DNA of 64,000 nt from a virus. Taxonomy: Duplodnaviria; Heunggongvirae; Uroviricota; Caudoviricetes. Shown piece by piece: positions 25,601 through 28,600 of the stretch. The stretch lies in the IMG/VR virus record IMGVR_UViG_2880395615_000008, one strand, 5' to 3'. The first letter of the stretch is position 1. Each line of letters starts with the position of its first letter. Position numbers: made by a program.

Positions 25601-28600
25601 CCAGGTTGGGGAATACTCCGTATACCAGAGATTCGTTGTTGCCAAGATTGAGCGTATCCATGTTGACCTCATTTGCCCTTAACGCCGGGGGGGCGGAACT
25701 AAGACCTGTCGCACCGTTGTGCTTTGATGGGATATATTGTTCTCTTAAGATGAACATATGTCAACATTGTGAATGCGCAAGAGGCAAAAAAAACCGCCTT
25801 CCGGCGGTATTGTTTTGTAAAATAAAGAATTATTTTTGTCGCGTTATTGGGTCAACGTATTCTGAGTAAAATTCGGTCAGTTTTTGAAGGCGCATTTGAA
25901 AAGCTGCCAGCATATTTCTACGCTCTACAGGTGGCAGGTTTCTGTAAACATCAAGCAGGGCTTTCTCATCATCATCAAGCGCCTCTCTGTTTGTATCTTC
26001 TTTTCCTGTCAGTAGCCAGGAAAGGGAAACATTTGTCGCTTCTGCAATTTTGGCTGCGGAATCTTTACTGATTGTCCCTCTTTTTTTCCAGGCGTTGACT
26101 GATGAGCGTCCTACACCAGCGATGCGCGCTAAATCTGAACCGCTTAAATGATGCTGTTGCGAGATCGTATCTAACCTTTCTGCCAGCGGGGTGTCGTATT
26201 GCTTTTTTCTCATGTCCATTTAGCAATTATAACCGTTCAGTGAACACTAACAATTCCTCGTAGTGTTGACTTATGTTCTCTTTAAGTGAACAATGTTGTG
26301 GCTGATTGAATTGGAGGTTGTATGACAGCATTGGACAAGGCAATAAAGATTGCTGGTGGTATTCGTCCGCTAGGGCGTGCAATAGGGGCTTGGCCGTCTC
26401 AAATACACAAATGGGCAAATGAATACAATGGTCGAGTGCCGACAGGGGAGCGGGTTCGTCAAATTTATATTGCAACTGGGGTGACTCCTCATGAATTGCG
26501 ACCAGATTTATATCCGAATCCAACCGACGGGTTGCCTGCTGGAGATAAGGCTAACACACAAAATACACCGGAGTTGATTCATGAAAATCAAGCATGAACA
26601 CATCCGCATGGCGATGAATGCCTGGGCGCGTCCTGATGGCGAAAAAGTTCCAGCAGCTGGAATAACCCAGGCTTATTTTGAGTTGGGTATGACGTTCCCA
26701 GAACTGTATGACGACAGCCATCCGGAAGCCCTGGCTCGCAATACCCAGAAAATTTTCCGCTGGGTAGAGAAAGACACCCCTGATGCTGTTGAAAAAATGC
26801 AGGCTCTGTTACCGGCGATCGAAAAGGCGATGCCGCCTTTGCTGGTGGCCCGTATGCGCAGCCACAGTTCTGAATATTACCGTGAGATCGTCGAACGGAG
26901 GGATCGGCTGGTGAAGGATGTCGATGATTTTGTTGCGTCAGCGGTTGTTTTGTATGACCAGATGAATCGCGGCGGCCCGGCAGGGAATGCTGTGGTGATG
27001 CACTAAAAGCACGGTGTTCGGGGGTTTTATGAGCAGCAAGCTTCATGGTCTTGTCTGGGAAGGGTGCGCCTTCACCGGCATGATCTTATCCAGGGTGGCG
27101 GTTATGGCCCGTCTTGCAGACTACAGCAATGACGAGGGCGTGTCATGGCCTGCCATTGAAACTATCCGGCGTCAGATCGGTGCAAGAAGTGAATCCACAG
27201 TGAAATCGGCTATTGCAGAACTGGCGAAAGAGGGCTGGCTGACGAAGGAAGAGCGTAAGGTCGGTGGGCGTAACGTAAGCAATATCTATCGGCTTAATGT
27301 GGAAAAACTTGAAGCAGCTGCAGCGGCGGCGCGTGAGGCATATAAACCAAAAAGAAAAATTAGCCAGGCAAAAAATGACCCGTCAAATATTGCCCCCTCA
27401 ACGGTTGGCCCGTCAAATGTTGATGGATCAACTGTTGATAAAAAACTGCGGATTAGGGGGGCGATGATTGACCCCGATCCGTCAGTATTAAAACCTGATC
27501 CGTCAGATAAAAGATCTTCTTGTCCGGACGTTTCACTGCCGGACGAAAAACAATCATCACCAGTTGAGCGATTTCTGGAGAAACACCCGGATGCGCATAC
27601 CTGGAATGTACCGAAGCGACAGTGGGGAACCCGGGAGGATTTGACGTGTGCACAGTGGATCTGGGGACGGGTTGTTGCGTTGTATGAACAGGCCGCCAGT
27701 GATGATGGGGAGGTATCACGCCCCAGAGAGCCTAACTGGACGACCTGGGCGAATGATGTGCGCATGATGCGTATGCTGGATGGACGTAGTCACCGACAGA
27801 TTTGTGAAATGTTTGGGCGTGTTCAACGGGATTCGTTCTGGGTAAAAAACATCATGAGTCCGGCAAAACTCCGGGAAAAATGGGATGAGCTGGTTATTCG
27901 CCTGGGGCGTTCGCCCGCGCAGCGTTGCGTGAATCATATTTCTGAACCGGATACCGAAATTCCGCCGGGGTTCAGGGGGTAGCGCATCATGAAAAACATT
28001 ACGTCAGGTGGTGTTCTGGCAAGAATCAGCAGATTTGTGCCGCAGGATGCAATCCCTCCGTACCGTACGGTGGCGGAGTGGCGGGAATGGCAGCTTGCTG
28101 AAGGGCGTAAGCGAAGCGAGGAGGTTAATCGTCTGAATCATCAGACGCGGGTTGAAAAAATCATTAACCGCTCCGGTATCCAGCCGCTTCACCGGAAGTG
28201 TACGTTCTGTAACTACCGGGTGCAGAACGCTGGTCAGCGCCATGCCCTGAGTCAGGCGAAATCCATTGCGGCAGAGCTGGAAGGCGGCTGTACGAATTTT
28301 GTGTTCAGTGGCCGGCCTGGCACAGGAAAAAACCACCTGGCGGCGGCGATAGGCAATCGGCTGATGGAGAAGGGGCGCAGCGTAATTATCATCACTGTGT
28401 CTGATGTCATGAGTGTGTTGCACGACAGTTACGACAACGGCAAATCAGGTGAAAAATTTTTACAGGAGCTTTGCGGGGTGGATTTGCTGGTCCTGGATGA
28501 AATTGGCATGCAGCGGGATACGCGTAATGAGCAGGTCACGCTTAATCAGATTGTTGACCGCAGAACGGCATCGTTACTCAGTGTGGGGATGCTGACAAAT

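What the first reader, a model, noticed from the sequence alone, without database searches (positions are those of the whole stretch)
25741..26321. Lambda-like immunity region with a short non-cleavable repressor and shared operator half-sites at OL and OR
The 129-aa repressor has an HTH and a helical C-terminal domain but no room for an S24 autopeptidase; CAACATTGT / GTGAACA half-sites recur in both flanking intergenic regions. Together with the Ant-like gene in the late region (40833..41402), this suggests induction by anti-repression rather than RecA-mediated cleavage.
Basis: partly seen in the sequence, partly recalled or inferred. Interest (0 to 1): 0.45.

Follow-up and report, generated by a model that had tools for sequence, protein, structure and literature searches.

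The report
Prophage switch with candidate small antirepressor

Summary
The short repressor and the repeated operators are real. The 129-aa repressor (25830-26219, minus strand) has an HTH domain and a two-helix C-terminal tail, with no S24 peptidase. The true operator is a 19-bp palindrome, TGTTC-N9-GAACA. It sits inside two mirror-image promoters, PL and PR, and its half-sites are conserved in relatives.

The repressor belongs to the known Gifsy/DicA class of non-cleavable repressors, so anti-repression is a reasonable mechanism. The proposed antirepressor is the wrong gene. Ant (40833-41402) lies in the late lysis cassette and has no LexA box. It is 100% identical in Sakai prophages Sp9 and Sp10, which carry unrelated repressors and are reported not to be mitomycin-inducible.

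A better candidate is an unannotated 55-aa gene (32279-32446). It fills the slot that the proven antirepressor Rem fills in Qin and Sp9. It co-occurs with this repressor's C-terminal module in every locus that could be tested. In Klebsiella, Enterobacter and Lelliottia relatives it lies behind a strong LexA box and dinI. In E. coli that control is missing, so the inducing signal is unknown.

This is a new member of a known kind, of moderate interest.

The parts
25736..25764 (-). PL promoter (-35 TTGACA, 17-nt spacer, -10 AACAAT). It drives the leftward operon: DUF1391 gene, DicF, dicB, exo, xis, int.
   Evidence: Promoter scan. It is one arm of the 31-nt inverted repeat.
25738..25756 (.). OL operator TGTTCTCTTAAGATGAACA, lying in the PL spacer and -10 region.
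   Evidence: Exact palindrome match, 2 found against 0.07 expected. In 9 related loci the half-sites are kept and the centre varies.
25793..25808 (.). Bidirectional intrinsic terminator at the end of the repressor gene.
   Evidence: The sequence is conserved in all related loci.
25830..26219 (-). Repressor, 129 aa (RefSeq aa). HTH domain plus a conserved two-helix C-terminal module; no S24 peptidase.
26226..26253 (-). PRM-like promoter (TTGTTA, 16 nt, TATAAT). The ATG at 26219 lies 6 nt after the -10, which implies a leaderless mRNA.
   Evidence: The same -10 + 6 nt + ATG geometry appears in four divergent HTH classes.
26228..26246 (.). Inferred weak operator over the PRM -10 (TATAACCGTTCAGTGAACA). 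Only the right half-site, GTGAACA, matches the consensus.
   Evidence: GTGAACAC is conserved in all loci of this class. Relatives with other recognition helices have palindromes at the same position. Its function is inferred.
26266..26294 (+). PR promoter (TTGACT, 17 nt, AACAAT).
26274..26292 (.). OR1 operator TGTTCTCTTTAAGTGAACA, inside PR.
26322..26597 (+). Cro analogue of the YdaS family, 91 aa.
   Evidence: Pfam YdaS_toxin 7.1e-10. The role follows the CP-933P work (PMC8630535).
26574..26591 (.). YdaT operator TTGATTCATGAAAATCAA.
   Evidence: The only exact match to TTGATT-N6-AATCAA in the window. The motif comes from PMC9986795.
26581..27006 (+). CII analogue YdaT, 141 aa.
   Evidence: PDB 8bt1 at E = 1e-88. 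Pfam YdaT_toxin.
25509..25664 (-). First gene of the PL operon, DUF1391 (YdfA-like), 51 aa.
   Evidence: Pfam 4.2e-28.
24511..24562 (-). DicF sRNA in the PL operon.
   Evidence: Rfam RF00039, 75 bits against a gathering score of 48.
32171..32198 (+). Promoter-like site of the small-ORF cassette (TTGATT, 16 nt, TAGAAT). There is no LexA box.
   Evidence: The -10 is conserved in the E. coli loci. LexA scan.
32205..32278 (+). Conserved leader with a hairpin (CCCCATAAGGGG) and GGA-rich motifs.
   Evidence: Alignments. Consensus folding gives only weak support. The leader is also present in the LexA/dinI-type loci.
32279..32446 (+). Candidate cognate antirepressor, 55 aa (phrog_34610, function unknown).
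40833..41402 (+). Ant-like late gene (P22_AR_N + ORF11CD3, 189 aa). Considered as the cognate antirepressor and rejected.

Best explanation
Positions 25.7-26.3 kb hold the lysis/lysogeny switch of a lambdoid prophage integrated at ompW. Its syntenic counterpart in the Sakai strain is Sp9.

How the switch is built. A dimeric 129-aa repressor binds 19-bp palindromes of the form TGTTC-N9-GAACA. These lie between the -35 and -10 hexamers of two mirror-image promoters. PL drives the DUF1391 gene, DicF, dicB, exo, xis and int. PR drives ydaS (cro-like), ydaT (cII-like) and the replication genes. Repressor bound there would block RNA polymerase. The repressor gene is probably read from a PRM-like promoter as a leaderless mRNA. 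A weak half-consensus site over the PRM -10 would give negative autoregulation.

How the switch is thrown. The repressor has no autopeptidase, so RecA cannot destroy it. It belongs to the Gifsy/DicA class. Its very conserved C-terminal two-helix module is the likely surface for dimerisation and for binding an antirepressor. The cognate antirepressor is most likely the 55-aa protein encoded at 32279-32446, in the nin region between hokD and the DUF968 gene. It would bind the C-terminal module and release the repressor from DNA. In Klebsiella, Enterobacter and Lelliottia relatives this gene sits in a LexA-box-dinI operon, as in Gifsy phages, and is therefore SOS-inducible. In this E. coli prophage that control has been replaced by hok/sok, a sigma-70-type promoter and a conserved leader. 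Induction here is therefore probably independent of SOS. It is either spontaneous and bistable, reinforced by the antirepressor once PR fires, or it answers an unidentified signal. The Ant-like gene is a late gene and is not the trigger.

Shown here: the anatomy, the family relationships, the co-occurrence, the module swap, and the presence or absence of LexA boxes.

Inferred: binding of repressor to the operators, the activity of the 55-aa protein, leaderless translation, and the nature of the inducing signal.
For: Repressor. It has an HTH only and no S24. The model shows an HTH plus two helices. The best structural match is SinR in the SinR/SinI complex, followed further down the list by phage repressors solved with small antirepressors. 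It aligns with DicA across both the HTH and the C-terminal helix (E = 5e-7). The profile A2 also finds DicA and GtgR.

Operators and promoters.
- The palindrome occurs exactly twice in 64 kb.
- A blind promoter scan returns exactly PL, PR and PRM.
- In 10 loci with the same recognition helix the half-sites are kept and the central 9 bp vary. Loci with other recognition helices carry other half-sites at the same positions.

The 55-aa ORF.
- A sensitive search finds a real family of about 55-aa proteins. The model is confident (pLDDT 89).
- Of 15 loci chosen through the repressor, all 12 that reach far enough have the ORF.
- Of 24 loci chosen through the ORF, all 17 that reach far enough have this C-terminal module. 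All 58 testable Rem loci have the DicA-type module instead.
- Four of the 17 have an unrelated HTH and different operators but the same C-terminal module.
- In the phage collection, the only records with an ORF homologue are the five that also hold the closest repressor homologue.
- Sp9 and the window are 89-98% identical in DNA on both sides of the slot. They differ together at the immunity region and at 32101-32534, where Sp9 has a Rem homologue and the window has the 55-aa ORF. Rem is the experimentally shown antirepressor of DicA (PMC10448788).

LexA. In L004, L006 and L012-L014 a LexA box of 23-28 bits lies 420-560 bp upstream of the ORF. In L004 the arrangement was read directly as terminator, LexA box, dinI, then the ORF. 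This is the Gifsy arrangement (PMC3121763). No LexA box is found in the window or in the E. coli, Salmonella and Cronobacter loci.
Against: There is no experiment on this protein pair.

The 55-aa family shows no significant similarity to GftA. Its similarity to Rem is weak and limited to 22 N-terminal columns (hhalign probability 20%). BLASTP against Rem finds nothing. The structure search finds no match.

The co-occurrence counts come from related and partly redundant prophages, so they are not independent events.

The cassette has what looks like a constitutive promoter. How it stays silent in a lysogen is unexplained.

The third operator and the leaderless start rest on sequence geometry alone.
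Confidence: 0.6

Rival explanations
1. The Ant-like protein (40833-41402) is the cognate antirepressor, is released by LexA cleavage, and inactivates the short repressor.
For: It carries the P22 antirepressor N-terminal domain (1.4e-45) and matches PHROG 'anti-repressor Ant' (2.4e-112). P22 Ant is known to act on several repressors (PMC3121763, discussion).
Against: - No LexA box lies within or upstream of 40563-40832. No repressor operator is there either, and the only promoter match is at chance level.
- It sits between the lysozyme and Rz genes in the late operon.
- It is 100% identical in Sp9 and Sp10, which have unrelated repressors and are not mitomycin inducible (PMC2669165).
- It is absent from the E32511 prophage that has an identical immunity region.
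- It is present in a remnant prophage that has no immunity region at all.
- It covers only positions 7-210 of the 317-position Ant profile.
Confidence: 0.07
2. There is no dedicated inducer. The switch is purely bistable: repressor against the YdaS/Cro analogue, with YdaT as the CII analogue. It flips spontaneously or with physiology, as shown for CP-933P and for DicA/DicC. The 55-aa ORF does something unrelated.
For: CP-933P and Qin show spontaneous bistable switching that needs neither RecA nor, in Qin, Rem (PMC8630535, PMC10448788). The window's YdaT and its operator are essentially those of CP-933P. No LexA box controls the 55-aa ORF here.
Against: This does not explain three things. The 55-aa gene follows the repressor's C-terminal module across six genera and two DNA-binding specificities. 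It is exchanged together with the repressor relative to Sp9. In other genera it lies in a LexA/dinI operon of the Gifsy type. This rival is compatible with the best explanation if the antirepressor only reinforces a spontaneous flip.
Confidence: 0.2
3. Induction comes mainly from other prophages in the same cell. Antirepressors made by co-resident prophages, such as Ant from an induced Stx phage or other small antirepressors, inactivate this repressor.
For: Cross-talk of this kind is documented for the Gifsy and Fels-1 prophages (PMC3121763). O157 strains carry many lambdoid prophages, and identical ant genes sit in several of them. The window itself holds two prophages in tandem.
Against: There is no evidence that Ant recognises this repressor. 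Sp9 and Sp10 were not induced when mitomycin C induced the Stx phages in Sakai (PMC2669165).
Confidence: 0.1
4. The repressor is a truncated, defective CI. Earlier work scored such Sakai repressors as defective. On this view the region is a decaying remnant.
For: Asadulghani et al. scored the Sp4, Sp6, Sp9 and Sp10 repressors as defective because they lack the peptidase domain (PMC2669165).
Against: The short length is kept across the whole family in six genera. The C-terminal 45 residues are the best-conserved part of the protein. The gene ends in its own terminator. The promoters and operators are intact and conserved. The family also occurs in records deposited as complete phage genomes.
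Confidence: 0.03

Closest known systems
Gifsy-1/-2/-3 repressors (GfoR, GtgR, GfhR) with the LexA-controlled small antirepressors GfoA, GftA and GfhA (Lemire et al. 2011, PMC3121763)
   Same: A short repressor made of an HTH and a helical tail, not cleavable. The C-terminal motif LLxxFxxLPxxE is shared. The small antirepressor gene lies outside the immunity region, in the nin region. Relatives of the window's system in Klebsiella, Enterobacter and Lelliottia have the same order: terminator, LexA box, dinI, small gene.
   Different: The 55-aa protein shows no detectable similarity to GftA. The window's copy has no LexA box and no dinI; hok/sok lies upstream instead. The C-terminal module is a distinct subtype. 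No experiments exist for this pair.
DicA / DicC / Rem of the Qin prophage, and its close copy in Sakai Sp9 (Ragunathan & Vanderpool 2023, PMC10448788)
   Same: Same overall layout. The PL operon holds a DUF1391 gene, DicF and dicB. The antirepressor slot lies between hokD and the DUF968 gene. There is no SOS control. Sp9 is syntenic with the window prophage, with 89-98% DNA identity outside the swapped modules.
   Different: The repressor is only 26% identical to DicA. The operators differ. The Cro analogue is of the YdaS type, not the DicC type. The slot holds the 55-aa family rather than Rem, and similarity between the two is marginal.
PaaR2 / YdaS / YdaT switch of CP-933P (Jurenas et al. 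2021, PMC8630535; YdaT structure, PMC9986795, PDB 8bt1)
   Same: YdaT is nearly identical (E = 1e-88). Its operator TTGATT-N6-AATCAA is present. The Cro analogue is of the YdaS type. The repressor is non-cleavable, and bistable behaviour is to be expected.
   Different: No paaA2-parE2 toxin-antitoxin genes follow the repressor gene; a terminator does. The operators differ: the PaaR2 half-site consensus is GTTTAGTAA.
SinR / SinI of Bacillus subtilis and arbitrium-phage repressors with small antirepressors (PDB 1b0n, 9iaq, 9sf2)
   Same: The architecture is the same: an HTH domain plus a C-terminal helical pair that a small protein engages. These are among the structural matches to the model.
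   Different: Sequence identity is only 17-23%. They come from other phyla. This is a resemblance in how the system may work, not shared membership.
P22 Ant, and the LexA-controlled antirepressors Tum (phage 186) and AntC (N15)
   Same: The window's Ant-like protein shares the P22_AR_N domain. [quoted passage not shown]
   Different: The Ant-like gene is shorter (189 aa, lacking the P22 C-terminal domain). It lies in the lysis cassette, not in an immI region. It has no LexA box and is not specific to this immunity type.

Membership tests
Lambda CI / LexA-type autocleavable repressors (peptidase S24) | C-terminal S24 peptidase domain with a Ser/Lys dyad | tested here: not met
   Pfam finds no S24 at E <= 0.01. 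Only about 47 residues follow the linker, and the model folds them as two helices. No homologue has S24.
Lambda CI / LexA-type autocleavable repressors (peptidase S24) | Ala-Gly or Cys-Gly cleavage site in the linker | tested here: not met
   The only Ala-Gly is at residues 34-35, inside the HTH.
Lambda CI / LexA-type autocleavable repressors (peptidase S24) | N-terminal Cro/CI-type HTH domain | tested here: met
   Phage_CI_repr 1.8e-12 and HTH_3 2.6e-8. Structural matches to the 434 and P22 c2 DNA-binding domains.
Gifsy/DicA-class non-cleavable repressors controlled by small antirepressors | About 125-150 aa, an HTH plus a short helical tail, with homology to DicA, GtgR or GfoR | tested here: met
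   BLASTP against DicA gives E = 5e-7 across both domains. Profile A2 hits DicA at 37.9 bits and GtgR at 34.6 bits. The LLxxFxxLPxxE motif is shared.
Gifsy/DicA-class non-cleavable repressors controlled by small antirepressors | A cognate small antirepressor gene outside the immunity region, in the nin region | tested here: inconclusive
   The candidate 55-aa ORF is in the right slot. It shows perfect co-occurrence (12 of 12, 17 of 17, and 0 of 58 in Rem loci) and is swapped together with the repressor relative to Sp9. Its activity has not been tested, and it has no clear homology to GftA or Rem.
Gifsy/DicA-class non-cleavable repressors controlled by small antirepressors | Antirepressor operon under direct LexA control (the Gifsy subtype) | tested here: not met
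   No LexA box lies within 1.2 kb upstream in the window. The feature is met in the relatives L004, L006 and L012-L014 (23-28 bits; dinI in between was read directly only in L004). The DicA/Rem subtype also lacks SOS control (PMC10448788).
Gifsy/DicA-class non-cleavable repressors controlled by small antirepressors | The antirepressor binds the repressor and removes it from the operator | not testable with these tools
   This needs biochemistry or a model of the complex.
P22 Ant-type antirepressor (for the gene at 40833-41402) | P22_AR_N domain | tested here: met
   1.4e-45.
P22 Ant-type antirepressor (for the gene at 40833-41402) | Full-length Ant with the C-terminal domain, controlled from an immI-type region or by LexA | tested here: not met
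   It is 189 aa and covers positions 7-210 of the 317-position profile. It lies in the lysis cassette. No LexA box is present.
CP-933P-type YdaS/YdaT switch | A YdaT homologue with its TTGATT-N6-AATCAA operator | tested here: met
   PDB 8bt1 at E = 1e-88. An exact operator lies at 26574-26591.
CP-933P-type YdaS/YdaT switch | The repressor is co-transcribed with the paaA2-parE2 toxin-antitoxin genes | tested here: not met
   The repressor gene is followed by a terminator and then PL.

The most novel reading that the evidence does not exclude
The 55-aa protein (phrog_34610) founds a new antirepressor family. It recognises a conserved C-terminal two-helix module of short prophage repressors, whatever operator those repressors bind. 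In the E. coli, Salmonella and Cronobacter lineages the ancestral LexA/dinI control has been replaced by hok/sok, a sigma-70-type promoter and a conserved GGA-rich hairpin leader. Induction of these prophages, which are widespread in EHEC, would then respond to a signal other than DNA damage, possibly acting after transcription.
Probability: 0.4. Interest if true: 0.55.

Novelty: new member of a known kind. Interest (0 to 1): 0.4.

Why it matters
Short non-cleavable repressors are common in the prophages of pathogenic E. coli. Earlier work scored them as defective, and what induces these prophages is unknown.

Naming the likely cognate antirepressor gives a direct handle on the problem. One small gene can now be expressed, deleted or used as bait. 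This would show how prophages that carry DicF/DicB, and in close relatives such as Sakai Sp9 type III effectors, are mobilised without DNA damage.

Comparing the versions with and without LexA control shows how an induction module can be rewired between hosts.

The analysis also corrects an easy annotation trap. A gene labelled antirepressor in the lysis cassette is not the partner of this repressor.

Tried and rejected
- Ant as partner: rejected.
- The 92-aa ORF at 32512-32790 as a Rem homologue: no alignment. It is conserved between the window and Sp9, so it is not the swapped part.
- Homology of the 55-aa ORF to known antirepressors. BLASTP against Rem found nothing. hhalign gave only 22 columns at 20% probability. 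The comparison with GftA was negative.
- Pfam for the small ORFs: no family.
- Structure search with the 55-aa model: no match.
- LexA boxes. The simple pattern gave 7 hits, none relevant. A weight-matrix scan found one strong box in the prophage, inside the start of the methylase gene and not near either candidate.
- Extra repressor operators elsewhere in the window, allowing up to 2 mismatches: at chance level.
- CAACATTGT as an operator half-site: not conserved.
- Scan of species-representative genomes with the repressor alignment: only 2 loci.
- Consensus RNA fold of the leader: only 3 weak pairs.
- Rfam on 23.5-33.5 kb: only sok, DicF and a sub-threshold STnc100 match.
- DinR sRNA (PMC10907235) as an explanation for the leader: no link could be established.
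Full report
CONTEXT. The window is E. coli DNA of the O157/EHEC type and holds two lambdoid prophages in tandem. Positions 1-14,000 are tail genes of the first prophage, followed by low-GC cargo. The second prophage starts with an integrase at about 20-21.4 kb and runs past 60 kb. The 1.9 kb around the finding is 100% identical in several O157:H7 and O111:H8 genomes. There it is annotated only as "helix-turn-helix domain-containing protein", "transcriptional regulator" and "toxin YdaT family protein".

The gene order is as follows:
- int, xis, exonuclease, dicB, DicF RNA (24511-24562), DUF1391 gene (25509-25664), all leftward;
- repressor (25830-26219, leftward);
- YdaS/Cro analogue (26322-26597), YdaT/CII analogue (26581-27006), replication genes, sok/hokD (31676-32000), two small ORFs, DUF968 gene, RusA, Q;
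- DNA methylase, tRNA, holin, lysozyme (40029-40562), Ant-like gene (40833-41402), Rz, terminase.

OBSERVATION CHECK. The repressor ORF is 129 aa. Pfam matches only HTH families over residues 15-75, nothing C-terminal, and no Peptidase_S24. An AlphaFold2 model built on 18 homologues (pLDDT 80) shows a five-helix HTH at residues 11-71, a linker at 72-82, and two helices at 83-94 and 97-121. The single Ala-Gly is inside the HTH. All 83 database homologues are short: nearly all full-length ones are 126-133 aa, a few records reach 172 aa, and none carries an S24 domain. They come from Escherichia, Shigella, Salmonella, Klebsiella, Enterobacter and Cronobacter. The short length is therefore a family trait, not a truncation.

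The repeats are real. A 31-nt inverted repeat joins 25736-25766 with 26264-26294. TGTTC-N9-GAACA occurs exactly twice in 64 kb, against 0.07 expected. It is not conserved in relatives.

ANATOMY OF THE SWITCH. A blind promoter scan of 25400-26700 returned three sites, and they are the three expected ones:
- PL, minus strand, 25764 to 25736: TTGACA, 17 nt, AACAAT.
- PR, plus strand, 26266 to 26294: TTGACT, 17 nt, AACAAT.
- A PRM-like promoter, minus strand, 26253 to 26226: TTGTTA, 16 nt, TATAAT.

The 31-nt inverted repeat is thus the same promoter-operator module used twice in opposite directions. In each copy the 19-bp palindrome fills the spacer and reaches into the -10. A bidirectional terminator (25793-25808) separates the repressor gene from PL.

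I compared loci that carry the same recognition helix: nine from E. coli viral contigs and one from Lelliottia. At both OL and OR1 the TGTTC and GAACA half-sites are kept, with one single-base exception at each site, while the nine central bases vary freely. That is the pattern expected for a dimeric HTH protein. Loci whose repressors have other recognition helices carry other half-sites at the same positions. Salmonella has TGTTAG-N7-CTAACA. Enterobacter, Klebsiella and Cronobacter have GGCTAA-type sites. Protein and site change together, which supports the operator assignment.

A third element, GTGAACAC at 26240-26247, is conserved in all loci of this class. It lies over the PRM spacer and -10. 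I take it to be a weak autoregulatory site (26228-26246); this is an inference.

In four divergent classes the PRM -10 is followed by exactly 6 nt and then the ATG. This suggests a leaderless mRNA, as known for lambda cI, and favours the 129-aa start over the 127-aa start used in RefSeq.

The right side of the switch matches CP-933P. YdaT matches the crystallised protein 8bt1 at E = 1e-88. Its published operator, TTGATT-N6-AATCAA (PMC9986795), occurs exactly once in the window, at 26574-26591.

WHICH FAMILY. The repressor aligns with DicA over both the HTH and the C-terminal helix (26% identity, E = 5e-7). A profile of the family also finds DicA and the Gifsy-2 repressor GtgR. All three share a C-terminal motif, LLxxFxxLPxxE. 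Within the family the last 45 residues (LPPxERRNMLAAFQMRL..FY..VDPxTRQK) are much better conserved than the DNA-binding part. The best structural match is SinR in its complex with SinI. Phage repressors solved with small antirepressors appear further down the list.

The literature already covers this class. Asadulghani et al. noted that the Sp4, Sp6, Sp9 and Sp10 repressors lack the peptidase, and that Sp6, Sp9 and Sp10 are not induced by mitomycin C (PMC2669165). Lemire et al. showed that such repressors in Gifsy phages are inactivated by small LexA-controlled antirepressors encoded next to dinI, and they listed DicA and RacR as members (PMC3121763). Ragunathan and Vanderpool showed that Rem, encoded between hokD and ydfU in Qin, is the antirepressor of DicA and is not induced by SOS (PMC10448788).

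IS ANT THE ANTIREPRESSOR? Probably not.
- It carries P22_AR_N and ORF11CD3 domains but covers only the first two thirds of the Ant profile.
- It lies between the lysozyme and Rz genes. The 270-bp upstream region has no LexA box, by pattern or by weight matrix. It has no repressor operator and only a chance-level promoter match.
- The lysozyme-ant-Rz cassette is in 617 complete E. coli genomes, against 66 for this immunity region.
- E32511 has the identical immunity region but no ant gene in that prophage.
- Strain 4276 has the cassette in a remnant prophage that has no immunity region.
- Sakai Sp9 and Sp10 encode the identical 189-aa protein next to repressors of other families. Both were reported not to respond to mitomycin C (PMC2669165).
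- Ant genes are also common in Stx phages in general (126 of 279 genomes; PMC8136144).

Ant is therefore a late-operon module that moves independently of the immunity type. It may act on co-resident prophages, as proposed for P22 Ant (PMC3121763).

A BETTER CANDIDATE. The slot that rem occupies in Qin, between hokD and the DUF968 gene, holds a 55-aa ORF in the window, at 32279-32446. RefSeq calls it hypothetical, PHROGs places it in a family of unknown function, and Pfam has nothing for it. A full HMMER scan found a family of about 55-aa proteins. The model is confident (pLDDT 89) with a helix-strand-strand-helix fold. Five lines of evidence link it to the repressor.

1. In the phage collection, the only records with a homologue are the five Klebsiella phages that also hold the closest repressor homologue.

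2. Of 15 loci chosen through the repressor, from six genera and with different replication and nin modules, all 12 with enough flanking DNA contain the ORF.

3. Of 24 viral contigs chosen through the ORF, all 17 with enough flank contain a repressor with this C-terminal module. Of 80 contigs chosen through a Rem homologue, all 58 testable ones contain a DicA-type C-terminal module instead. These loci are related to one another, so the counts overstate the number of independent events.

4. Four of the 17 have a repressor with an unrelated N-terminal HTH and different operators (TACTAC...GTAGTA) but the same C-terminal module. The small gene therefore follows the C-terminal module, not the DNA specificity. 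Lemire et al. saw the same thing for GfoA and GfhA, which act on heteroimmune repressors.

5. Sakai Sp9, integrated at the same ompW site, is 89-98% identical to the window prophage in int/xis/exo, sok/hokD, the 92-aa ORF with DUF968 and RusA, and the lysis region. Similarity is lost at two places. One is the immunity region, where only a short 81%-identical stretch at 29088-29483 interrupts the gap between 24683 and 31590. The other is 32101-32534. At those places Sp9 has a DicA-type repressor and a Rem homologue, and the window has the 129-aa repressor and the 55-aa ORF.

Against homology with the known antirepressors: nothing with GftA, and only a marginal N-terminal match to Rem.

CONTROL. 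In Klebsiella phage Kp4882-1 the order is terminator, LexA box TACTGTTTATTTATACAGTG (24.7 bits), dinI, then the small ORF. This is the Gifsy-2 order. Lelliottia and three Enterobacter loci have LexA boxes of 23-28 bits at the same distance. The window, all the E. coli viral contigs, Salmonella and Cronobacter have none within 1.2 kb. There hokD lies upstream, followed by a promoter-like site (TTGATT, 16 nt, TAGAAT, 32171-32198) and a leader of about 75 nt. The leader is conserved even in the LexA-type loci. How the gene is kept silent in a lysogen is not explained. Two possibilities are control through the leader, or expression only after PR fires. In the second case the protein would make a spontaneous flip irreversible rather than start it.

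VERDICT. The class assignment (non-cleavable, antirepression-type) is right but already known. The named antirepressor is wrong. The most likely mechanism is a Gifsy/DicA-type repressor-antirepressor pair in which the partner belongs to an uncharacterised 55-aa family. That partner is LexA-controlled in some genera and has been uncoupled from SOS in this E. coli prophage. I rate it a new member of a known kind, of moderate interest.

Noticed in passing
window 35629-35648: A strong LexA-like box, CACTGTAAAAATATCCAGTT (21.5 bits, above the median of known E. coli sites). It overlaps codons 3-9 of the DNA methyltransferase gene (35621-36679). It is conserved, at 23.8 bits, in E32511 and in Sakai Sp9. 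None of 50 shuffles of the window reached 20 bits. A weak promoter (TTAATG, 17 nt, TAAAAA) may overlap it. If so, the methylase and perhaps the late genes downstream might respond to SOS.
   Followed up: partly
window 32205-32278: The leader of the 55-aa ORF is conserved across genera, including loci where the ORF follows dinI. It contains a hairpin (CCCCATAAGGGG) whose stem sequence changes between genera while pairing is kept. It also has three GGA motifs, one of them at the ribosome-binding site, which is reminiscent of CsrA targets. The consensus fold was weak.
   Followed up: partly
window 32467-32483: A stem-loop, CCAGCCTGAACAACTGG, lies just after the 55-aa ORF. A similar element (CTGGCCTGAACAACCAG) lies at the same relative position after gftA in Gifsy-2, and a degenerate one in Kp4882-1. 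It looks like a boxB-type hairpin.
   Followed up: no
L024 1709-2218, also L028, L031 and L040: Chimeric repressors. They have an unrelated N-terminal HTH and different operators (TACTAC...GTAGTA) joined to the same C-terminal module (FPPVEARNMLLAFEMRL). They are paired with a 55-aa ORF 71-93% identical to the window's.
   Followed up: partly
window 32070-32095: The hok terminator is weakened in the window (CTCGCTTCGGCGG) compared with relatives (CCCGCTTCGGCGGG). The terminator scan did not call it. Read-through from hok into the small-ORF cassette may therefore be higher here.
   Followed up: no
window 26219-26231: The PRM -10 is followed by 6 nt and then the ATG. The same spacing appears in four divergent repressor classes. 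This points to a leaderless repressor mRNA and to the 129-aa start rather than the 127-aa start used in RefSeq.
   Followed up: partly
window 25769-25774: A half-site-like element, (A/G)TGAAT, lies just upstream of the PL -35. It is conserved in all loci of this operator class. It could be an auxiliary OL site.
   Followed up: no
window 1-14000, and 4229 / 55687: A second prophage's tail genes lie upstream in tandem. The identical 16-mer CTGTTTTATGACACAG at 4229 and 55687 appears to lie in matching tail-gene regions of the two prophages (not checked directly) and is not a LexA site.
   Followed up: partly
window 19089-19108: A moderate LexA-like box, AACTGTTTTGAAAAACAGAA (15.7 bits). By position it falls at the end of an IS3 remnant, ahead of the ompW fragment, outside the prophage. 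It is also present in E32511.
   Followed up: no
L043 13563-13582 (Sakai Sp9): A LexA-like box, TGCTGTTAATAAAAACAGTA (21 bits), inside the Sp9 replication gene ECs_1768.
   Followed up: no
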